Shown here: positions 37,381 through 57,005 of the stretch, in pieces | Layout of the letters: each line of letters starts with the position of its first letter | Numbering within the stretch: the stretch's first letter is position 1 | From: a virus | Lineage: Duplodnaviria > Caudoviricetes | IMG/VR virus record: IMGVR_UViG_3300022752_000079 | Location: 1 to 57,878 of that record | Direction: 5' to 3' (one strand) | DNA length: 57,878 nt | The notes under the pieces: model-generated | The model's input: the letters and a program-made list of their open reading frames with translations, nothing else | What the model was told of the DNA's origin: nothing | Database searches by the model: none | Program-made: the position numbers and the translations under genes

Positions 37381-38103
37381 TCAATTGAACTTATCTAGTA
37401 TTTTGTAACTATTTATGTTCAAGCACGCGTGCATACATTCGTTGATATAACTTTCTGCATTCATATGAAAGTGTCCGTAAAAATGCATTTTCAACTTGAA
37501 TTTCGAATGAATTGCATCAAATGCTTCTGTTATTTTTCTGCGTTCCGTAATCAGCTCTTCCAATAAATTGCTATCATTCGCTGCGAATGAATATACTAAA
37601 TAATTGAAACCGGTCGGATCACAGAAACTAGGAGCAGTATGAGTAACTAAAATGTCAATTGAATCGTATGAGTCAATAACGTTCTTCAGTTTGATATCAT
37701 CAAGTACAAACAATTCATTTTTCCAATACGATACATTTTCCTTTCGATGCAATCTGTCAATTGAAATTGCACCTCCTATTAGAAGGATGTTTTGCCCGGA
37801 TAAGTTCAATACAGTGTAATCTGGTACTAACTGGAAACTTTCAGAAATTTGATTGATAGGATGATTCAAATCGAAAAATGCAGGATTATCATGATTGCCT
37901 CTACAAGCAAACATTCTACAATCATTTTTATGTAAAATGGCTATACATTTTCGAATTCTAGTCATGTCCCTAGAATCGAACCCAATACCGAAATCACCAA
38001 CCTGTATGATGTCAGATCCTGGATACTTGTCGGCTAACGCTTCAATAACACTGAACGCTCCGTGAATGTCACCTAAAAATATAAGAGGTCTCATTATTTG
38101 CAA
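37381..38103 (-). CDS. Calcineurin-like metallophosphoesterase
   Basis: GDIHG, VGDFG, RGNHD, THTAP, YGHFH. Confidence 0.88.
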   Translation of the reverse strand: MQIMRPLIFLGDIHGAFSVIEALADKYPGSDIIQVGDFGIGFDSRDMTRIRKCIAILHKNDCRMFACRGNHDNPAFFDLNHPINQISESFQLVPDYTVLNLSGQNILLIGGAISIDRLHRKENVSYWKNELFVLDDIKLKNVIDSYDSIDILVTHTAPSFCDPTGFNYLVYSFAANDSNLLEELITERRKITEAFDAIHSKFKLKMHFYGHFHMNAESYINECMHACLNINSYKILDKFN

Positions 38104-38549
38104 ATTTTATCTGCTACGTATGAAGCCGATACTGCATCGGGCTTGCATCTAGGAGTAAATCCCATTGCTTCTATGTAACCCATAGCTGATCTTAATACTG
38201 TATTAGAACCCCATCTAGGATCTGGATTAAGATCCACGTCCACGAATTTAATAGGTATTGAAGATGCACTTAAATGAGCTGCTAGGTTAATTGAGTGTTC
38301 TACTTCAGTCCATAATCTAATAAACTTATCGCGAATTCGCTCAACTCTACTAGTGGCATATAGAACGTGACCACCAGCTTTATTTTTATGGAGTACAATT
38401 ACCATACCGAAGTCGGTCCATCGACCATGGACCTGCGAATCGCAACCTACATATACCTCTGTTTCCGGATTCTGTTTCAAATACTCAGAAACGTATGATA
38501 TCAAATCTACTTTACGATTATCAGATAATCGTTTGAATTGAAGTTCCAT
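38094..38549 (-). CDS. RNase H-like YkuK-family protein
   Basis: VYVGCDSQ, LWTEVEHS, VDVDLN, KPDA..ASYVAD. Confidence 0.75.
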   Translation of the reverse strand: MELQFKRLSDNRKVDLISYVSEYLKQNPETEVYVGCDSQVHGRWTDFGMVIVLHKNKAGGHVLYATSRVERIRDKFIRLWTEVEHSINLAAHLSASSIPIKFVDVDLNPDPRWGSNTVLRSAMGYIEAMGFTPRCKPDAVSASYVADKICK

Positions 38550-38563
38550 AACAAACTTTTTAG

Positions 38564-38635
38564 AGGTCGAGACAGGATTCGAACCTGTGTACGAGCTTTT
38601 GCAGAACTCTACCTAAGCCACTCAGACACTCGACC
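38564..38635 (-). tRNA. tRNA-Cys(GCA)
   Basis: Cloverleaf; anticodon loop CTGCAAA. Confidence 0.9.
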
Positions 38636-38650
38636 TTATCAATAAATATG

Positions 38651-38722
38651 TGTCCCCGGAGGGATTCGAACCCCCAACGTATGATCCGAAGTCATGAATT
38701 TTATCCATTAAACTACGGGGAC
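38651..38722 (-). tRNA. tRNA-Arg(UCG)
   Basis: Cloverleaf; loop CTTCGGA. Confidence 0.88.
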
Positions 38723-38731
38723 GATCGTTAA

Positions 38732-38968
38732 TCAATAACAGAACATAGCATAAATCAATCTCAAGACAAGTAAAAGTACACTAATCACTGTATACATACC
38801 ACTCAAATCAGTAACCATCCATGATCGAATAGAAAATGGTTCAATAAAGTGACCCCAGAACTTATCTCTAATATGATATTTTCTTTCCTCAACTCGCAAG
38901 TTGTGGTGTGAAACAACTAAAAATGTAGCACCGCATACGATAGCCAATGTTAATAATGAAGTGATCAT
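38732..38968 (-). CDS. Small membrane protein
   Basis: Two hydrophobic segments. Confidence 0.5.
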   Translation of the reverse strand: MITSLLTLAIVCGATFLVVSHHNLRVEERKYHIRDKFWGHFIEPFSIRSWMVTDLSGMYTVISVLLLVLRLIYAMFCY

Positions 38969-38983
38969 AAAGTTTTATTTAGT

Positions 38984-39565
38984 TTATTTAAATCGTTTCC
39001 AATGTTTAAACGTTTCTGCAATTTCATCTGAAATTACTGATTTCACTGTTTCATTTTTAGGTTTATATGATACGGCTACATCAGTCAATTCAGGTTCCGG
39101 TTGTTTTGACAACGCATTTACTATAGATATGAGTTTGGATCCTTGATATCTGGAAATTAATCGACTGTCAATCGACTCGCGTATCAATTTCATTGCTTTG
39201 TCTTTACCGAACAAATCATACAATTCCATAACTCGAGTACCTAATGCATCGTAAACTTTTTCATCTGCATTTGATTCAATTATTGAAGTGGTGTTGCAAT
39301 TCAATTTATGAGTACTACCTCCGGACTTACCCGGCTTCAAACCTCTAAGTGTACCGAATCCTGTTCTAGATGCAATTTTATGAAATTCAGCTGCAACTTT
39401 TGAATCTGATACAATTTGAATTTCGTTACCCGTTTTGTGATGAATTATCGGTATTGCAGAAACTTTCTCTACATCAGAGCAGTTAACGCAATGCATCGTG
39501 TTAGGAACGATTTTCAATCGATTGATAGGAATCTCAATGTTACAACTTTTGCAGTACCTTATCAT
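38984..39565 (-). CDS. DksA/TraR-type C4 zinc-finger protein
   Basis: CKSCNIEIPINRLKIVPNTMHCVNC. Confidence 0.7.
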   Translation of the reverse strand: MIRYCKSCNIEIPINRLKIVPNTMHCVNCSDVEKVSAIPIIHHKTGNEIQIVSDSKVAAEFHKIASRTGFGTLRGLKPGKSGGSTHKLNCNTTSIIESNADEKVYDALGTRVMELYDLFGKDKAMKLIRESIDSRLISRYQGSKLISIVNALSKQPEPELTDVAVSYKPKNETVKSVISDEIAETFKHWKRFK

Positions 39566-39757
39566 ATCATGAATCTAATATAATCAAATGAATCGTACAA
39601 TAAAGTTATACTAAAATGTGGATATCAATCGATTTACTTGATAATCAATAAGTTATAGAACTTATTAGATACCATCTAAGTGCTTTTTACCGCTTCCATA
39701 TAATCTTTATAAGAATCATGATATTTGAGCTAGTATAAGCACTATAAACTAGATTAG

Positions 39758-39847
39758 AGGAAGATATGGGACTCGAACCCATGAATCAATTTAAATCGAT
39801 CAACTATTTAGCAAACAGTCTCCGGTGCCATCACGGACTTATCTTCC
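39758..39847 (-). tRNA. tRNA-Ser(GCU)
   Basis: Long variable arm; loop TTGCTAA. Confidence 0.85.
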
Positions 39848-39851
39848 AAAT

Positions 39852-39928
39852 TGGTGTGTCTGGCGAGACTCGAACTCGCATTTACGGCTCCACAGACCGT
39901 CACTTTAAACCTTTAAGTTACAGACACC
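39852..39928 (-). tRNA. tRNA-His(GUG)
   Basis: Loop CTGTGGA; G-1 and CCA encoded. Confidence 0.88.
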
Positions 39929-39929
39929 G

Positions 39930-40016
39930 CGGAAGCCAAGAGACTCGAACTCTTACATCGGCTCAGCACCGACCTAGCCGTTTTCAAGACGGTGTACCAC
40001 TCCTTTGGGGACTTCC
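39930..40016 (-). tRNA. tRNA-Ser(UGA)
   Basis: Loop CTTGAAA; long variable arm; weak D-arm. Confidence 0.8.
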
Positions 40017-40021
40017 AATAG

Positions 40022-40092
40022 TTGCCTCGACACGATTCGAACGTATATCAAGGGAGTCAAAGTCCCCTATTCTGCCATTAAACTACGAGGCA
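40022..40092 (-). tRNA. tRNA-Gln(UUG)
   Basis: Loop CTTTGAC. Confidence 0.88.
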
Positions 40093-40102
40093 ATAAATGC
40101 AG

Positions 40103-40178
40103 TACCGTGAGTGAGAATCGAACTCACCACCTCTTGGATATGAATCAAGTGTTCTAAAACCTACTGAACTATCACGGT
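40103..40178 (-). tRNA. tRNA-Met or Ile2 (CAU)
   Basis: Loop TTCATAT. Confidence 0.8.
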
Positions 40179-40183
40179 ATTAG

Positions 40184-40255
40184 AGCTCATACTCAGAATT
40201 GAACTGAGATCGGTTGATTACGAAACAACAATTTTACCGATTAAACTATATGAGC
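40184..40255 (-). tRNA. tRNA-Thr(CGU)
   Basis: Loop TTCGTAA. Confidence 0.85.
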
Positions 40256-40259
40256 ATAG

Positions 40260-40331
40260 AGCAGATAACGGGTCTCGAACCCGTCCCCGAAGTTTGGAAG
40301 ACTCCCGTGCCACCAACAACACCTCATCTGC
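40260..40331 (-). tRNA. tRNA-Gly(UCC)
   Basis: Loop CTTCCAA. Confidence 0.85.
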
Positions 40332-40335
40332 AATG

Positions 40336-40408
40336 TACTCTCGAGCAGATTCGAACTGCTATAAATTCATTAGAAGTGAATTGTCCTGATCCATTGAACG
40401 ACGAGAGC
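40336..40408 (-). tRNA. tRNA-Arg(UCU)
   Basis: Loop CTTCTAA. Confidence 0.9.
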
Positions 40409-40413
40409 AAATG

Positions 40414-40490
40414 TGGAGCTTATGAGCATCGAACTCATCTGATGTCTTCATTGCAAGTGAAGTGACCACAGCCAAGCAGTCCCAAGCCCC
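40414..40490 (-). tRNA. tRNA-Ala(UGC)
   Basis: Loop CTTGCAA; G3:U70 pair. Confidence 0.88.
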
Positions 40491-40501
40491 ATATTAATTA
40501 G

Positions 40502-40580
40502 TCGATGTAATAGGACTCGAACCTATATTTGCATCCAATTACCTTAACTCCTGCATATCAGGCAGGGGGGATATACATCG
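40502..40580 (-). tRNA. Non-canonical tRNA-Ile(GAU) lacking a normally placed D-arm
   Basis: CGATGTA-TATCCCC-CCTGC CTGATAT GCAGG-23 nt-ATAGG TTCGAGT CCTAT-TACATCG. Confidence 0.7.
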
Positions 40581-41321
40581 TTCATTAGTAATTATATCTT
40601 CATAATACCATACATCTAATCTATAACCTAAATTTCTTACGGCATTCCATTTATTTATGTCATTATCATTAGAATATCCCTTTACTTCTAAATAATAGAA
40701 GTCGTCCGAATCTATATATACTTTAAAATCAATTAAATATGTACGCCGTTTATTATTTATATCAACATACGGATATCTATCGTTCGTATATTCCCAATCA
40801 TATATTTTATTCAAGTTTTTCCAATGATCCAATATATTGCATACTCTAACTTCATATGTACCTTGAACTTTAATATATCCTTTACTTGTATTCACCGTAT
40901 ACCATTTCGTAGTACCACCGGATATCTTTTTTTTGCCGGCAACGAATGCACGTTTATGTATTTTAGACCATTCCTCTGAAGTGATACTCAATGCCTTAGA
41001 TTGAAATATTCTCCAATTACTTTTTCTAGCACATGATTTTGAACAAAATATTTGTTTTACTTTTTTTGTATAGAAATCTAATGTACATTCATTACATACT
41101 TTATGTAGTAAAGTTATCGGTTTATGTATATGTTTTTGTTTGAGTGAGTTGCTTATTTTGAGCTTCGTAATATCTGTAAGAATACGTTTCTTATTATTAT
41201 ACGTGGCGCTACAACTTTGTGTACAAAATTTATTATGTCGTTTTTTAAAATCTATAATACTAATACCGCAATTTATACATTTATTCGGTGCTGCACTATA
41301 ATCGATTACCTTTATTGTCAT
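40539..41321 (-). CDS. Putative homing endonuclease inside the tRNA array (start revised to MTIKVID)
   Basis: Repeated FC...C zinc motifs, ITKLKISNSLK, C-terminal YLIDF..YLEVKG; late motif at 41326-41333. Confidence 0.75.
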   Translation of the reverse strand: MTIKVIDYSAAPNKCINCGISIIDFKKRHNKFCTQSCSATYNNKKRILTDITKLKISNSLKQKHIHKPITLLHKVCNECTLDFYTKKVKQIFCSKSCARKSNWRIFQSKALSITSEEWSKIHKRAFVAGKKKISGGTTKWYTVNTSKGYIKVQGTYEVRVCNILDHWKNLNKIYDWEYTNDRYPYVDINNKRRTYLIDFKVYIDSDDFYYLEVKGYSNDNDINKWNAVRNLGYRLDVWYYEDIITNERCISPLPDMQELR

Positions 41322-41361
41322 AAAAATAAATATAGAAAATTTAATTATATTTACATAAAAT

Positions 41362-41400
41362 AGACTACCAGGTGCCTTCAACCAATTTGGCCACGTAAGT
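41362..41400 (-). pseudogene. Truncated tRNA 5' half
   Basis: ACTTACG TG GCC AAATTGGTTGAA GGC A CCTGG, then breaks off; no matching 3' acceptor strand seen. Confidence 0.55.
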
Positions 41401-41405
41401 ATAAG

Positions 41406-41479
41406 AGCTTCTAATCGGACTCGAACCGATATCATTGCGTTACAAATGCAATATTCTAAGCCAATTGAACTATAGAAGC
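41406..41479 (-). tRNA. tRNA-Thr(UGU)
   Basis: Loop TTTGTAA. Confidence 0.88.
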
Positions 41480-41489
41480 AAATGCAGGT

Positions 41490-41590
41490 CACCGCTACCC
41501 TGCTCGGTACCTAAAGTTTCGAATTCTTTAACGTCTTGTTCTGAAAGACATTGTCGCACGCTGGTACTTTCCCTTTAACGCGGAACGGTG
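41490..41590 (-). ncRNA. Unassigned structured RNA
   Basis: Closing stem CACCGTT/AGCGGTG with internal stems. Confidence 0.5.
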
Positions 41591-41664
41591 CACCGGAGGA
41601 GTGACTCGAACACTCACTGAAATCGTTTTGGAGACGATTTGACTAACCAATTGCCGACTCCGGC
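41591..41664 (-). tRNA. tRNA-Trp(CCA)
   Basis: Loop CTCCAAA. Confidence 0.85.
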
Positions 41665-41673
41665 GTATATTAG

Positions 41674-41749
41674 TAGTTCGACCCGGACTCGAACCGGGGT
41701 TCTTCTACTTTGTAAGAGTAGTGCCATAAACCAACTAGGCGATCGAACT
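41674..41749 (-). tRNA. tRNA-Val(UAC)
   Basis: Loop CTTACAA. Confidence 0.88.
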
Positions 41750-41754
41750 GAATG

Positions 41755-41825
41755 AGCCGCGTACCATCTCGAATAGGCGTCTGTTCTATACCACAGAACT
41801 GTTTTTCCTGTTAAACTAACACGGC
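41755..41825 (-). tRNA. tRNA-Thr(GGU), imperfect T-arm
   Basis: Loop GTGGTAT. Confidence 0.72.
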
Positions 41826-41834
41826 ATTCAAAAG

Positions 41835-41918
41835 TACCCCCGGGGAGACTCGAACTCCCACACTCGTTAAAGCATCAGATCCTAAGTCTGATATGTCTAC
41901 CAATTCCAACACAGGGGC
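41835..41918 (-). tRNA. tRNA-Leu(UAG)
   Basis: Loop CTTAGGA; long variable arm. Confidence 0.9.
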
Positions 41919-41920
41919 AA

Positions 41921-42030
41921 GGCTCCGTCGGTAAACGGAGAATAGATTATTGCTTCTGATTGTCTAATGACGAGTTATGATATTTACCGATATCCGTCGT
42001 CCTCAACTCAAAGCGCGGCACTATTATCGC
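41921..42030 (-). ncRNA. Unassigned structured RNA with complementary hairpin loops
   Basis: GATAT-CGGTAA-ATATC and CTCCGT-TTACCG-ACGGAG. Confidence 0.5.
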
Positions 42031-42035
42031 TATAG

Positions 42036-42108
42036 TATAAGCGGCAGGCTTCGAACCTGCGACTTCTTGGTCCCAAACCAAGTACTCTACCAACTGAGCT
42101 ACGCCTAT
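42036..42108 (-). tRNA. tRNA-Pro(UGG)
   Basis: Loop TTTGGGA. Confidence 0.9.
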
Positions 42109-42116
42109 ATGATTAG

Positions 42117-42193
42117 TACTCCTGACGGGACTTGAACCCATATGTAACCAATTACCCTTTCTATATGGTATAAGCATAAGGGGATACAGGAGC
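42117..42193 (-). tRNA. Non-canonical tRNA-Ile(UAU) lacking a normally placed D-arm
   Basis: GCTCCTG-TATCCCC-TTATG CTTATAC CATAT-AGAAAGGGTAATTGGTTACAT-ATGGG TTCAAGT CCCGT-CAGGAGT. Confidence 0.7.
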
Positions 42194-42197
42194 AAAT

Positions 42198-42288
42198 TGG
42201 TAGCGGGTGCAGGAATCGAACCTGTCACACCTTTCGGTTAATAGCTTATGAGACTATCGAGGCATCACCACCAGCCTTCATACCCGCA
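42198..42288 (-). tRNA. Initiator-like tRNA-Met(CAU) with extra arm
   Basis: 1:72 mismatch, loop CTCATAA, CCA encoded. Confidence 0.75.
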
Positions 42289-42298
42289 ATTTAAAATG

Positions 42299-42384
42299 TA
42301 CTCGAAGTGGGAATCGAACCCACACGACCTTTTAGGGTCACGGGATTTTAAGTCCCGCGCGTATACCAGTTTCGCCATTCGAGC
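42299..42384 (-). tRNA. tRNA-Leu(UAA)
   Basis: Loop CTTAAAA; long variable arm. Confidence 0.92.
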
Positions 42385-42389
42385 AAATG

Positions 42390-42476
42390 TCCTCCATGTT
42401 AGATTCGAACTAACAACCCGCTGTGTAAAAGACAGCTGCTCTCGCCTTTCGGCTCGCCAATTAGAGCTAATGGAGG
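42390..42476 (-). tRNA. tRNA-Lys(UUU) with D-loop insertion
   Basis: Loop CTTTTAC; GCC-GAAA-GGC hairpin in the D-loop. Confidence 0.8.
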
Positions 42477-42481
42477 ATAAG

Positions 42482-42554
42482 CGGGATATACGAGAATCGA
42501 ACTCGTAGCGCGGCATAGACAGTGCCGCATGTTCAGCCATTACACCAATATCCC
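42482..42554 (-). tRNA. tRNA-Asp(GUC)
   Basis: Loop CTGTCTA. Confidence 0.85.
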
Positions 42555-42565
42555 GTAATAACGTG

Positions 42566-42639
42566 TATCGCGTACGAGACTCGAACTCGTAAGCTCCTCA
42601 GTGAAAGTGAGGTGTCCTAACCAATTAGACGAACGCGAC
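42566..42639 (-). tRNA. tRNA-Glu(UUC)
   Basis: Loop CTTTCAC. Confidence 0.9.
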
Positions 42640-42648
42640 GTATAAAGT

Positions 42649-42718
42649 ACTGACGGTGCTCGAGCCGCTCGAGTAGTGCGCCGGCGACCAGATTACCTGT
42701 ACCTGTCCCACCGTCAGT
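42649..42718 (-). ncRNA. tRNA-sized unassigned structured RNA
   Basis: Perfect 10-bp closing stem ACTGACGGTG/CACCGTCAGT. Confidence 0.45.
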
Positions 42719-42725
42719 TTTGTAG

Positions 42726-42807
42726 TTCCAGCAGAAGGACTCGAACCTCCGAACTCGTAAGAGAACTGATTTACAGTCAGCTGCAATTGCCGCTATGCGA
42801 TGCTGGA
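42726..42807 (-). tRNA. tRNA-Tyr(GUA)
   Basis: Loop CTGTAAA; long variable arm. Confidence 0.88.
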
Positions 42808-42813
42808 ATATTG

Positions 42814-42898
42814 CTGGCAGGGTGGGATTCGAACCCACGATTGAATTGAATTCGACGGCTTAACAGGCCGTTTCCATAGACCACTCGGACACCTACCA
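42814..42898 (-). tRNA. tRNA-Asn(GUU) with long variable region
   Basis: Loop CTGTTAA. Confidence 0.8.
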
Positions 42899-43122
42899 AT
42901 AGAAAAAGGTATAGCTGTTTTAAGTGTGCCCTCACATACAACAGATTCGCTAATAGCATTTTAACCTATACCTTAAGCGATGATTCACATCATCAAATTA
43001 ATTTGGCTATCAATATGTCAATGAACATCAATTAGAAGTCAATTATCATATTCTCCTAATTACTTCTTAAATCTAAGATAATTTTTTGAAACTACCAAAA
43101 TTCTAAGAAATTTTTTATTTTG

Positions 43123-43196
43123 CAGGAATACCGGGCCTTGAGTCCGAATCTCCGGATTTTCAGTCCGGCGCTTTTACCGATTTAAGCTATATTCCC
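43123..43196 (-). tRNA. tRNA-Phe(GAA), degenerate T-loop
   Basis: Loop CTGAAAA; T-loop CTCAAGG. Confidence 0.75.
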
Positions 43197-43267
43197 ATGT
43201 TTAAATTTCAATATGATAAAGCTAATATAATCAATTGAAACTTACAAATAACAACTTAATTAAATGT

Positions 43268-43295
43268 AAAAAGCCTCAACTTTCGTCGAGGCTTT
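43268..43295 (-). terminator. Intrinsic terminator (attenuator) upstream of the tRNA array
   Basis: AAAGCCTCGAC-GAAA-GTTGAGGCTTT-TT. Confidence 0.8.
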
Positions 43296-43317
43296 ATATC
43301 AATAATTGATAATAGTA

Positions 43318-43434
43318 TTAACAATAGAATATACTCAACCTCGATGTACAGGTATAATCCACGCGATTCGCTTCAAATATCGGCGAGCCGGTGCAAATTG
43401 CATTATGCCACGTACTATAGAGTTGTTTATTCAT
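43318..43434 (-). CDS. 38-aa leader peptide containing all 20 amino acids (putative attenuator leader)
   Basis: MNKQLYSTWHNAICTGSPIFEANRVDYTCTSRLSIFYC*; its 3' part is complementary to the terminator 5' arm. Confidence 0.75.
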   Translation of the reverse strand: MNKQLYSTWHNAICTGSPIFEANRVDYTCTSRLSIFYC

Positions 43435-43469
43435 ATCACTAATATATATGATTCAATTTCAATATATGC

Positions 43470-43748
43470 TCAACTTTTTCCTACTGTATAAGAAATTCCT
43501 AATCCTGGTTCAACTTCTACTCGATTCGGAGATTTCATATGAACTTCTGCAGCCAATTGTTGTTGCAGCTCCTGAACTTTTTGAAAATTGTCGTCAATCT
43601 GCTTGAATGTGGTGTCGACTGCTTTAAATGTGTTTGCAGTATTCAAATAGAATCTTGCAACCTCTTTATACAGATCTCGAAGTTTAACGTGAATGTAAAT
43701 TGCATATACAATTGCAGTCATCGCAATCAAACTACTTATTACTACCAT
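43470..43748 (-). CDS. Membrane-anchored coiled-coil protein
   Basis: N-terminal transmembrane helix. Confidence 0.55.
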   Translation of the reverse strand: MVVISSLIAMTAIVYAIYIHVKLRDLYKEVARFYLNTANTFKAVDTTFKQIDDNFQKVQELQQQLAAEVHMKSPNRVEVEPGLGISYTVGKS

Positions 43749-43901
43749 TATACTGTTTTAAAAAATCATGCAATTTATGTACAAATTCAGTGTCAGTGGT
43801 ACTTCTCGAATTGATTTCCATGATCAGCTGTTTGAGTAGTTGCTGATCTTTTTCATATTGATCTCTAGATCGTTTCACTTCATGTAGGTATTCTAAATAG
43901 C

Positions 43902-44087
43902 TCATTTGTTATCGTTTAATGATTTCATAATTTGTAACACTTCTTCAAACTCCAACACATCGTGCGAGTCAGACTCCATGTCAGCTTCGGCGCATAACAA
44001 TCGTAACATGCATCTACATGTTTCCGGGGTAACTTCCCCGAACATTCGAATGATGCAATCATTCATTGATTCGTTCAATTTTACCAT
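43902..44087 (-). CDS. Hypothetical protein
   Basis: ORF downstream of a TATCTTTA promoter box (44104-44111). Confidence 0.55.
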   Translation of the reverse strand: MVKLNESMNDCIIRMFGEVTPETCRCMLRLLCAEADMESDSHDVLEFEEVLQIMKSLNDNK

Positions 44088-47987: not shown

Positions 47988-48002
47988 AATTTTATTTTTA
48001 GT

Positions 48003-48127
48003 AGTCAGGACAGGATTCGAACCTGTATATGATACCTTTCATATTATCTACTTAACCATTTAGCTCGGGGTTTTCGAACTTTTTACTGTTAAGTAATTCA
48101 GCGTCTAACCAATTCCGCCACCTGACT
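48003..48127 (-). ncRNA. tRNA-like scaffold repeat, copy C (125 nt)
   Basis: Same ends; insert with TACTTAAC/GTTAAGTA stem. Confidence 0.75.
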
Positions 48128-55334: not shown

Positions 55335-55476
55335 ATACTTAAAGATAGGAAGAATGATTGAAAAAAACAAGCAGTTTGATAACTTTTTTTCAAAAAAACG
55401 TGTAAAAACTTAACTAATTGATTATCAATAAGTTATGCGAGGCTGCCGGCCCGGCCGGCCCGGAGGGCCTGATGTG
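55335..55476 (-). promoter_or_regulatory. Early promoter module with operator box and GC-rich element
   Basis: Same architecture as 50711-50845. Confidence 0.7.
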
Positions 55477-56802: not shown

Positions 56803-56918
56803 AAATGCTTTTTAATTAACCTTATACTTAAAGATAGATAAAATACTTGAAATAAACAAGCAGTTTGATAACTTTTTTTACAAAAAACTTAATTCATTGA
56901 TTATCAATAAGTTATAGC

Positions 56919-57005
56919 AGTCAGGACAGGATTCGAACCTGTTAGGAGTTATTGACTATTACCTCCGCCGCTCACTCGGTGCGTCTACCATTCCGCCACC
57001 TGACT
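56919..57005 (-). ncRNA. tRNA-like scaffold repeat, copy D (87 nt)
   Basis: Same ends; anticodon arm reduced to CCG-AGTGAG-CGG. Confidence 0.75.

What the first reader, a model, noticed from the sequence alone, without database searches (positions are those of the whole stretch)
43268..43450. Pan-amino-acid leader peptide plus terminator/antiterminator in front of a complete phage tRNA array
Seen in sequence: an unannotated minus-strand ORF at 43434-43318 encodes MNKQLYSTWHNAICTGSPIFEANRVDYTCTSRLSIFYC. All 20 amino acids occur in its first 26 codons. Repeated residues mostly use different codons that mirror the isoacceptors in the downstream array: Thr ACG/ACC/ACA vs tRNA CGU/GGU/UGU, Ser AGT/TCG vs GCU/UGA, Ile ATT/ATA vs GAU/UAU, Arg CGC/AGG vs UCG/UCU, Leu CTC/TTG vs UAG/UAA. 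Codons 31-33 contain TCGAGGTT (43337-43344), which pairs with AGCCTCGA, the 5' arm of the terminator AAAGCCTCGAC-GAAA-GTTGAGGCTTTTT that begins about 22 nt after the stop. Established: this is the logic of ribosome-mediated attenuation (trp/his-type leaders), which normally senses one or a few amino acids. Inference: full translation covers the antiterminator and transcription stops. Stalling at any codon (starvation, or tRNA cleavage by host anticodon nucleases) frees it and allows read-through into the 27 tRNAs, making a universal tRNA-depletion sensor. Caveat: promoter-like TTTG-N17-TATATTAG/TATCTTAG sites at about 43222-43248 and 43073-43100 lie downstream of the terminator, so this may be a booster rather than the only input.
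Basis: partly seen in the sequence, partly recalled or inferred. Interest (0 to 1): 0.95.

Follow-up and report, generated by a model that had tools for sequence, protein, structure and literature searches.

The report
Leader-peptide attenuator heading phage tRNA arrays
A tiny gene that uses nearly every kind of codon, followed by a switchable stop signal, sits in front of the tRNA gene cluster of this phage and its relatives, and probably lets the phage make more tRNAs when translation runs short of them.

Summary
The minus-strand ORF 43434-43318 has all 20 amino acids in its first 26 codons. Its 3' end can pair with the 5' arm of the terminator at 43295-43270. The tRNA count of 27 and three of the named isoacceptors were not confirmed.

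Relatives settle the question. In 11 phage lineages, a 33-54 codon ORF plus an intrinsic terminator sits at the head of the tRNA array. The peptide sequence is barely conserved, but the frame stays open in every lineage. The ORF tail is always complementary to that lineage's own terminator 5' arm, although the stem sequence differs between lineages. This is the anatomy of a leader-peptide attenuator.

Nine of the 11 leaders cover 21-24 of 24 decoding classes; the shuffle mean is about 19. The two exceptions are informative. One array holds only Pro, Ala, Arg, Val, Gly and Thr tRNAs, and its leader spends 23 of 32 codons on exactly those six amino acids.

Most likely, leader codons mirror the array's tRNA set, so slow decoding causes read-through into the array. 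In this window a promoter-like site lies after the terminator, so read-through would only add to basal transcription.

No expression data were available. Five literature searches found no precedent. I rate it a new variant of a known kind, of high interest.

The parts
43439..43446 (-). promoter-like -7 box ending 4 nt before the leader start codon (short or no 5' UTR)
   Evidence: The same box type lies 3-25 nt before many long ORFs of this phage, for example at 55347 and 50724. No transcription start data.
43318..43434 (-). leader ORF: 38 codons plus stop, 20 of 20 amino acids, 24 of 24 decoding classes
   Evidence: Counterparts in 10 other lineages. No differences from the window listed in the contig pieces of three DNA runs, which cover all (X2), all (X3) or nearly all (X4, to 43431) of the ORF.
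43408..43442 (-). candidate region 1 (start region that can pair with the ORF tail; anti-antiterminator)
   Evidence: The duplex is -14.1 kcal/mol but P = 0.11 against random window pairs, so evidence in this window is weak. It is clearer in L038, L039, L043, L063 and L188.
43337..43344 (-). region 2: antiterminator strand inside codons 31-33
   Evidence: best duplex of the whole leader with the terminator 5' arm, -12.3 kcal/mol. P = 0.0055 against 2000 random windows; pairs with region 3 in the nascent-transcript fold.
43297..43311 (-). small A+T hairpin in the spacer that brings regions 2 and 3 together
   Evidence: The only difference in close strains across the whole element (43304) falls in its loop.
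43285..43295 (-). region 3: terminator 5' arm, shared by antiterminator and terminator
43268..43280 (-). region 4: terminator 3' arm and T run
   Evidence: 11 pairs, 5 G-C, 4-nt loop; forms in the fold of the full transcript.
43222..43248 (-). promoter-like site downstream of the terminator (basal input to the array)
   Evidence: resembles the phage's recurrent promoter-like family.
43123..43196 (-). tRNA-Phe, first tRNA after the attenuator
   Evidence: Rfam RF00005, 54.9 bits. Missed by ARAGORN.
43073..43099 (-). second promoter-like site
38563..42898 (-). rest of the tRNA array (about 23 tRNAs, with ORFs interspersed)

Best explanation
This is a ribosome-dependent transcription attenuator placed at the head of a phage tRNA gene array.

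A short leader ORF is transcribed from a promoter just upstream; in several relatives it is transcribed together with a first tRNA. Its last codons carry a segment (region 2) that can pair with the 5' arm (region 3) of the intrinsic terminator 22-42 nt downstream.

If the ribosome runs through the leader and reaches the stop codon while RNA polymerase makes the terminator, it occupies or sterically blocks region 2. The terminator then forms and transcription ends. If the ribosome lags or stalls on any hungry codon, region 2 pairs with region 3. The terminator cannot form, and polymerase reads through into the tRNA genes.

The leader's codons are chosen to represent the tRNAs that the array supplies. 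That means nearly every decoding class where the array is near-complete, as in this window, and only the matching amino acids where the array is partial. The circuit is therefore a negative feedback on tRNA supply: a shortage of a decodable tRNA raises transcription of the array. The shortage could come from a mismatch with the host pool, decay of host tRNAs during infection, or cleavage by tRNA-targeting defences.

Shown here: the sequence anatomy, its conservation and covariation, the maintained open frame, and the codon statistics.

Inferred: that the ORF is translated, that stalling changes read-through, and the physiological trigger.

In this window and most relatives, a promoter-like site after the terminator would give basal expression, with the attenuator adding to it. 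In L038 and L019 the next tRNA starts 8 and at most 31 nt after the T run, so read-through would be the only input there.
For: 1. Anatomy in the window. The ORF, region 2, the terminator and the spacing are as described. In nascent-transcript folds, region 2 moves to the terminator 5' arm once that arm is made. In the full transcript, the terminator forms.

2. Conservation by position. A scan blind to amino-acid diversity was run over 13 array regions (11 clade loci plus L059 and L063). In 11 of 11 clade loci, and in L063, an intrinsic terminator at the array head lies just after a 33-54 codon ORF. It is the only terminator found outside tRNAs in W, L038, L039, L043 and L063. L059 had none; its array begins 51 bases from the contig end. 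L063 is described, L188, L087 and L180.

3. Antiterminator pairing.
- The best duplex between each terminator 5' arm and its leader falls in the ORF's last part in 11 of 11 loci.
- The last 36 nt against the locus's own arm gives -8.7 to -13.9 kcal/mol. P is 0.0005-0.026 per locus against 2000 random windows. Fisher over 8 lineages gives 6e-12, uncorrected for phylogeny.
- The stems differ between lineages (several unrelated stem sequences), and region 2 changes with them. L063 has 11 pairs at -18.6 kcal/mol and L180 has 9 pairs.
- The nascent fold switches to the antiterminator in 9 of 11 loci and 4 of 4 loci.

4. An ORF kept open without a conserved peptide.
- Stop-free fractions of composition-matched shuffles are 2-21% per locus; the product over 11 lineages is 1.7e-14.
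- In 13 aligned leaders only Met1 is invariant and His7 nearly so. Mean column identity is 25%.

5. Codon coverage.
- Leaders cover 21-24 of 24 decoding classes in 9 of 11 lineages. The window, L019 and L087 reach 24 of 24.
- For the window, 0 of 28,669 gene windows reach 24, and 0.08% of shuffles do.
- Fisher over 11 lineages against shuffles gives 7e-7, or 3.6e-5 without the window.
- Two further L087-type variants keep 20 of 20 amino acids.

6. The leader mirrors its array.
- L063's array holds only Pro, Ala, Arg x2, Val x2, Gly x2 and Thr x2. Its leader has 23 of 32 codons in these six amino acids: P = 1e-4 against shuffles and 2.5e-8 against the locus's proteins. All 10 tRNAs have a cognate codon.
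- L188 shows the same trend.
- In L180, 17 of 45 codons fall in the four amino acids of the five tRNAs seen: P = 0.02 and 0.002.
- Downstream tRNAs with a cognate leader codon exceed the shuffle mean in 15 of 15 loci. Fisher gives 7e-4, or 2.6e-3 without the window.

7. No room for a promoter after the terminator in L038 (8 nt) and L019 (at most 31 nt).

8. A missing Shine-Dalgarno sequence is normal for this phage. Only 2 of 43 long ORFs in the window have one, and 5-13% across five loci.
Against: - No expression evidence. The one RNA run holds only a contig at 42798-42971.
- Two of 11 lineages (L063 type, L180) are not pan-amino-acid. Most relatives lack a Cys codon although their arrays carry tRNA-Cys.
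- The region 1:2 pairing of the classical four-region model is only weakly supported: Fisher 0.03, and P = 0.11 in the window.
- In the window, region 2 ends 15 nt before the stop codon, and in L019 23 nt before it. A ribosome parked on the stop would cover it only marginally, so the blocking step relies on a steric argument.
- Terminators are stronger than antiterminators in all but L180.
- Promoter-like sites follow the terminator in the window and most relatives, so the regulatory weight may be small.
- The 24-class statistic and the array-mirror test were devised after seeing the data. The Fisher combinations treat related lineages as independent.
- Leader codon usage is atypical: low adaptation in 9 of 11 loci. 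This also fits an untranslated structured RNA.
- The test 'leader codons readable by the array' is weak (Fisher 0.009) and goes the wrong way in several loci.
Confidence: 0.55

Rival explanations
1. It is a leader-peptide attenuator, but it senses overall coupling of translation to transcription (ribosome availability, global elongation rate) and not individual tRNAs. The broad codon coverage would be a by-product of a compositionally balanced, structured leader.
For: The anatomy is equally compatible. Two lineages have ordinary or low diversity. Cys is missing from most leaders. Part of the diversity is explained by base composition: the shuffle mean of about 19 classes exceeds the gene-window mean of about 17.
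Against: Coverage exceeds composition-matched shuffles across lineages: Fisher 7e-7, or 3.6e-5 without the window. Leaders before partial arrays are enriched in exactly the amino acids of the tRNAs that follow. A generic coupling sensor has no reason to do that.
Confidence: 0.2
2. It is an independent small-protein gene with its own promoter and terminator. The peptide acts in trans, and the terminator simply ends its transcript.
For: A promoter-like box lies directly upstream. The terminator is strong. The N-terminal residues are similar in many lineages, with His7 nearly invariant. One database copy is annotated 'hypothetical protein'.
Against: The rest of the peptide is not conserved: mean column identity is 25%. 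By eye, a pair of related leaders shows many amino-acid changes and few silent ones, and the conserved codons are identical at all three positions (sequences). The conserved complementarity of the ORF tail to each terminator arm is unexplained. In L038 and L019 the next tRNA has no promoter of its own. The composition tracks the array's content.
Confidence: 0.12
3. It is a small structured non-coding RNA, or a plain terminator module, and the open reading frame is incidental.
For: The region folds better than shuffles: z = -2.1, -7.2 and -2.8 in three loci. Conservation is at the nucleotide level in blocks. Codon usage is atypical. tRNA-like sequence can give diverse ORFs by chance, as two false hits showed.
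Against: An ATG-initiated frame spanning from region 1 to just past region 2 is kept in 11 lineages despite heavy divergence and in-frame length changes. No Rfam family matches the leader. The amino-acid content mirrors the array.
Confidence: 0.08

Closest known systems
Leader-peptide attenuators of amino-acid biosynthesis operons (trp, his, thr, ilv, leu, phe leaders); recalled textbook knowledge, with search listings
   Same: A short ORF, an intrinsic terminator, and an antiterminator that shares the terminator's 5' arm and lies at the end of the ORF. The terminator is more stable than the antiterminator. Regulatory codons match what the operon supplies. The L063 leader, with four consecutive Thr codons, looks like a classical one.
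   Different: The regulated genes are tRNAs, not biosynthetic enzymes. The element is phage-encoded. In most lineages the leader has no run of one amino acid and instead covers nearly every decoding class once or twice. Its start codon lies a few nucleotides after a promoter-like box, in a phage whose genes largely lack Shine-Dalgarno sequences.
   Same: A leader-peptide attenuator that controls a component of the translation apparatus rather than a biosynthetic pathway.
   Different: It senses one amino acid and controls a protein-coding operon of the cell.
T-box riboswitches
   Same: A terminator/antiterminator switch that reports on tRNA status.
   Different: A T-box binds an uncharged tRNA directly and needs no ORF. 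No T-box model matched here. T-boxes control synthetase and amino-acid genes, one tRNA each.
pyrBI (pyrL) type coupling attenuator; recalled
   Same: A leader with no amino-acid bias whose ribosome position relative to polymerase decides termination.
   Different: There the ORF runs into the terminator, and the ribosome prevents the hairpin. Here the stop lies 22-42 nt before the terminator arm, so the logic is inverted.
Phage tRNA arrays as compensation for host tRNA loss or tRNA-targeting defences (PMC10264068, PMC11555353, PMC11464382: only search listings and the start of abstracts were seen)
   Same: The same class of genes, and a plausible reason for wanting them induced on tRNA shortage.
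   Different: As far as the listings show, those works concern what the tRNAs do, not a cis-acting sensor that regulates their transcription.

Membership tests
Ribosome-mediated (leader-peptide) transcription attenuator | Short ORF upstream of, and on the same strand as, the regulated genes | tested here: met
   A 33-54 codon ORF sits at the array head in 11 lineages. The frame is maintained: the product of stop-free fractions is 1.7e-14. Translation itself is not shown.
Ribosome-mediated (leader-peptide) transcription attenuator | Intrinsic terminator between leader and regulated genes | tested here: met
   for the window. for relatives: -10 to -18 kcal/mol, T runs of 5-9.
Ribosome-mediated (leader-peptide) transcription attenuator | Alternative antiterminator helix that uses the terminator's 5' arm and a segment at the end of the ORF | tested here: met
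   (P = 0.0005-0.026 per locus). (forms in 13 of 15 nascent folds). The segment changes with the stem across lineages.
Ribosome-mediated (leader-peptide) transcription attenuator | Anti-antiterminator (region 1:2) helix | tested here: inconclusive
   The head-tail duplex is significant only in L038, L039 and L043. Fisher is 0.03 and the window gives P = 0.11. It is clear in the folds of L063 and L188.
Ribosome-mediated (leader-peptide) transcription attenuator | Leader codons correspond to what the regulated genes supply | tested here: met
   Met in an altered form: near-complete coverage before near-complete arrays, and matching enrichment before partial arrays.
Ribosome-mediated (leader-peptide) transcription attenuator | Read-through responds to supply of charged tRNA and depends on leader translation | not testable with these tools
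   Needs reporter, Term-seq or Ribo-seq data. The only RNA run does not cover the leader.
T-box riboswitch | Specifier loop and conserved T-box sequence recognised by the Rfam model | tested here: not met
   No T-box hit at E up to 1 in 38000-44000, nor at gathering score in the window.
pyrBI-type coupling attenuator | Leader ORF extends into the terminator so the ribosome blocks the hairpin | tested here: not met
   The stop codon lies 22-42 nt upstream of the terminator 5' arm in 11 of 11 loci.
Conserved small-protein gene | Amino-acid sequence conserved among homologues | tested here: not met
   Only Met1 is invariant and His7 nearly so. Mean column identity is 25% in 13 leaders.

The most novel reading that the evidence does not exclude
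Phages of this group run a self-contained tRNA homeostat. A leader peptide whose codon repertoire is a miniature copy of the array's tRNA repertoire converts a shortage of any of those tRNAs into read-through transcription of the array. In phages with a near-complete array, it acts as an all-codon sensor of translation. This would also make the array inducible by host defences that cleave tRNAs.
Probability: 0.45. Interest if true: 0.9.

Novelty: new variant of a known kind. Interest (0 to 1): 0.85.

Why it matters
Phage tRNA genes have been known for decades, and recent work links them to escape from tRNA-cleaving defences. As far as five literature searches show, no sensor that regulates them has been described.

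If this reading is right, it would matter in three ways:
- **A new target and breadth for attenuation.** It would extend the oldest paradigm of RNA-based regulation to tRNA genes themselves. It would be the first leader that reports on many or all decoding classes rather than one amino acid.
- **A readable specificity.** The sensor's specificity could be read from sequence, because leader codon content matches the array's tRNA content. The idea can therefore be tested by comparative genomics alone.
- **A practical use.** It would provide a compact natural part that reports global decoding capacity.

Tried and rejected
**Searches for relatives that failed**
- A DNA search of 901 bases around the leader against 50,697 phage records found no match.
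- The leader peptide was too short as a query for related loci.
- The neighbouring 92-aa and 283-aa proteins gave no relatives.
- Relatives of the nearby glucosaminidase-domain protein (L002-L014) are not syntenic. Eleven of the 12 scanned have no tRNA and one (L006) has a single tRNA.

**Family matches**
- Rfam has no family for the leader region, at E up to 1 or at gathering score.

**Tests of the pairing that were not decisive**
- The swap test pairs each leader with every lineage's terminator arm. It did not decide anything, because many arms share a core and the whole leader was searched. I replaced it with the tail-window test.
- MAFFT alignments A3 and A4 did not put region 2 in register across lineages. 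I therefore ran no count of structure pairs, no covariance model and no formal covariation score. The covariation statement rests on per-locus duplexes.
- Head-tail (region 1:2) pairing is weak.
- The 'leader codons readable by the array' test is weak.

**Breadth outside the clade**
- Four cultured phages with tRNA arrays were scanned: Leptolyngbya Lbo-JY46, Pseudomonas Milchi, Vibrio EniLVp02 and Xanthomonas BUDD. None (0 of 4) has a short high-coverage ORF with a terminator and tail complementarity at an array head.
- The EniLVp02 locus begins inside its array, so its array head was not examined.
- L059 has no such element, but its array begins 51 bases from the contig end.

**Expression**
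- I laid one RNA run and three DNA runs on the region. The RNA run's only contig lies at 42798-42971, so nothing can be said about expression of the leader.
- The DNA runs show the leader and terminator unchanged in close strains. The expected number of differences there was only about 2, so this is not significant.

**Protein database**
- A profile search of the 5.8-billion-protein collection gave only 7 short proteins. Gene callers rarely call this ORF.

**Other limits**
- Supplementary files of papers were not consulted. Papers were seen only as search listings and the start of abstracts.
Full report
**What is in the window**

The window is a 57.9-kb viral contig estimated 31% complete. It carries a portal, baseplate-wedge and SbcCD-like genes of a large tailed phage.

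On the minus strand an array of tRNA genes runs from about 43196 down to 38563. ARAGORN finds 21 tRNAs there, and Leu-GAG far upstream at 56917-57005. Rfam adds a Phe tRNA at 43196-43123. Relaxed ARAGORN adds two more. The gaps in the array contain tRNA-like or structured pieces.

Directly upstream of the Phe tRNA lie, in order:
- a promoter-like site at 43248-43222;
- an intrinsic terminator at 43295-43270, with 11 pairs and a 4-nt loop;
- a 22-nt spacer with a small hairpin;
- the 38-codon ORF at 43434-43318.

**The observation**

No other stretch in any of the six frames of the window achieves this in fewer than 31 codons.

The chance is about 1e-5 given the start Met. For the less cherry-picked statistic, 20 kinds in the whole 38 codons, it is 0.2% of same-length windows from long ORFs and about 1% of composition-matched, stop-free shuffles.

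The segment at 43344-43337 is the best partner of the terminator's 5' arm anywhere in the leader, at -12.3 kcal/mol. Taken alone, the window is suggestive and no more. The decision had to come from relatives.

**Finding relatives**

DNA searches and the immediate neighbours gave nothing. The RNase H-like gene (PF04308) at the 3' end of the array did give relatives. It found four viral contigs and 47 metagenome loci.

Sixteen loci, counting the window, have 10 or more tRNAs. Three are duplicates of others. One (L059) starts 51 bases before its first tRNA. One (L063) is very distant.

**A conserved element at array heads**

Every one of the 11 distinct loci of the clade that includes the array head has an ORF of 37-54 codons followed by an intrinsic terminator. 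It sits either before the first tRNA or just after a first tRNA-Met.

I repeated the identification without using amino-acid diversity. I listed all strong terminators in each array region and the ORF ending within 70 nt upstream. The leader is recovered in 11 of 11 clade loci. In W, L038, L039 and L043 its terminator is the only one outside tRNAs.

The same scan uncovered the element in distant L063. A relative of L063, L188, has it too.

I also ran a pattern scan for the shared 5' end of the ORF in viral contigs. It was capped at 117 matches:
- 34 matches start ORFs of 20-70 codons.
- Only 6 of these are followed by a terminator.
- All 6 have tail complementarity.
- Three are leaders already known. 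Two represent new lineages, L087 and L180, both at array heads.

In all I count 11 lineages.

**Evidence that it is an attenuator**

- *Position of the pairing.* The best duplex between each terminator 5' arm and its leader lies in the last part of the ORF in 11 of 11 loci. It ends 2-23 nt before the stop, and in L040 it overlaps the stop.
- *Strength of the pairing.* The last 36 nt pair with the locus's own arm far better than random 36-nt windows of the same locus. P is 0.0005-0.026 in each of 11 loci. Fisher over 8 lineages gives 6e-12, without correction for shared ancestry.
- *Covariation.* The terminator stems are not the same sequence. At least six clearly different stems occur, and in each lineage the ORF segment matches its own stem. 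Examples are an 11-pair match in L063 and a 9-pair match in L180.
- *Behaviour of nascent folds.* When transcripts are folded as they would emerge, region 2 is first paired with the start of the ORF. It then moves to the terminator 5' arm once that arm exists, in 9 of 11 loci and 4 of 4 loci. In full-length folds the terminator forms. L180 is the exception: there the antiterminator remains the minimum-energy structure.
- *Region 1:2.* This helix is statistically weak overall: Fisher 0.03, and P = 0.11 in the window.

**Evidence that the frame matters and the peptide does not**

Composition-matched shuffles of each leader are free of stops only 2-21% of the time. The product over 11 lineages is 1.7e-14. 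Yet all lineages keep an ATG-initiated frame running from the start region to just past region 2, despite length changes.

In an alignment of 13 leaders only Met1 is invariant and His7 nearly so. Mean column identity is 25%. The shared N-terminal codons coincide with the RNA segment that pairs with the ORF tail. This offers an RNA-level reason for their conservation.

The phage's own long ORFs rarely have a Shine-Dalgarno motif: 2 of 43 in the window. Several start 3-4 nt after a recurrent promoter-like box. The leader has the same arrangement.

**Evidence on what it senses**

I counted 24 decoding classes: the 20 amino acids, with Leu, Ser and Arg each split into their two codon boxes and the Ile codon ATA counted separately.

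- The window's leader covers 24 of 24 classes in 38 codons. None of 28,669 gene windows does so, and 0.08% of shuffles do.
- L019 and L087 also reach 24. L017, L018 and L043 reach 23.
- Nine of 11 lineages reach 21 or more, against a shuffle mean near 19.
- Fisher over 11 lineages gives 7e-7, or 3.6e-5 leaving out the window, which was picked for this property. I defined this statistic after seeing two leaders.

The two low-diversity lineages turned out to be the most telling.

- *L063.* Its array encodes only Pro, Ala, two Arg, two Val, two Gly and two Thr tRNAs, plus one odd call. Its leader has Thr 7, Val 5, Gly 4, Arg 3, Pro 2 and Ala 2. That is 23 of 32 codons in exactly these six amino acids: P = 1e-4 against shuffles and 2.5e-8 against the locus's proteins. 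Each of the ten tRNAs has a cognate codon, including both Arg boxes and both Gly isoacceptors.
- *L188.* Its array is a subset of L063's, and it shows the same bias.
- *L180.* Its array is cut by the contig end after Cys, Ile, Phe and two Ser tRNAs. Its leader has 17 of 45 codons in those four amino acids: P = 0.02 and 0.002.
- *All loci.* The number of downstream tRNAs with a cognate codon in the leader exceeds the shuffle mean in 15 of 15 loci. Fisher gives 7e-4, or 2.6e-3 without the window.

**How much the switch controls**

In L038 the next tRNA begins 8 nt after the T run. In L019 it begins at most 31 nt after. Neither gap leaves room for a promoter, so read-through would be the only way into those tRNAs.

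In the window (73 nt) and most other loci (67-224 nt), a promoter-like site follows the terminator.

**What argues against this reading**

- There is no expression evidence of any kind.
- Cys codons are absent from most leaders, although their arrays carry tRNA-Cys.
- Region 2 lies 15 nt (window) and 23 nt (L019) before the stop, so the blocking step needs a steric argument.
- Leader codon usage is poorly adapted in 9 of 11 loci. This fits a sensor built from slow codons, but also fits an untranslated RNA.
- The combined P values ignore shared ancestry.
- Four cultured phages with arrays from other groups lack the element. It is a feature of one group of uncultured freshwater phages, not of phage tRNA arrays in general.

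**Comparison with known systems**

The element works like the classical leader-peptide attenuators, and the L063 version looks like one. It meets their structural criteria. The response to tRNA supply could not be tested.

It is not a T-box: no model hit. It is not a pyrBI-type attenuator, because the stop lies well before the terminator.

Five full-text searches found no report of a leader-peptide attenuator in front of tRNA genes, or of a leader covering all amino acids. I saw only listings and the start of abstracts, and subscription journals are not covered.

**Verdict**

I put about 0.8 on 'leader-peptide attenuator of the tRNA array'. I put 0.55 on the specific reading that its codons mirror the array's tRNAs so that it senses their supply.

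Noticed in passing
L017 8463-8882; L018 8357-8780; L043 4909-5330: GOLLD RNA (RF02032, 254-267 bits) lies next to the tRNA arrays of three related phages. None was found in the window itself.
   Followed up: no
L039 298-676; L040 4719-5079; L043 3421-3803; L019 12572-12935: Phage-encoded tmRNA genes (RF00023, 55-73 bits) lie close to the arrays in four relatives.
   Followed up: no
window 57420, 56836, 56468, 55347, 53572, 52347, 50724, 37374 (minus strand): A recurrent, nearly identical promoter-like module (an upstream T-rich box plus a -7-type box) precedes many genes. In two cases it ends only 3-4 nt before the ATG, which suggests leaderless or very short-leader mRNAs.
   Followed up: partly
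window 38094-38549 (-): An RNase H-like (PF04308/DUF458) gene ends the array. Relatives occur in 79 cultured phage records. In the records inspected it lies in or within a few kb of tRNA genes, including Vibrio, Pseudomonas, Xanthomonas and cyanophages. It may be linked to tRNA handling.
   Followed up: partly
window 42640-42724, 42109-42197, 41919-42034, 41750-41833, 41480-41589 (-): Gaps between called tRNAs hold structured or tRNA-like sequences: a long perfect hairpin, and a piece with an acceptor and a T arm. Neither ARAGORN nor Rfam calls them. They may be non-canonical tRNAs or other small RNAs.
   Followed up: no
window 48002-48127 (-): A weak Rfam tRNA hit of 126 nt (36 bits) lies outside the array. 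It may be a tRNA with an insertion.
   Followed up: no
window 38984-39565 (-) and 40539-41492 (-): Protein-coding ORFs lie inside the array. One has a DksA/TraR-type zinc finger (E = 4e-5, just below the Pfam cut-off). One of 317 aa has no family match.
   Followed up: no
L043 8419-8571: A 50-codon ORF with 20 of 20 amino acids lies inside the array, directly after a tRNA-Leu, and is followed by a hairpin. I did not examine whether it is a second sensor or chance.
   Followed up: no
L017 4350-4560; L018 4150-4340: A tRNA-like sequence with a long insert and a conserved about 60-nt element precede the promoter of the first tRNA-Met. They are nearly identical in the two loci.
   Followed up: no
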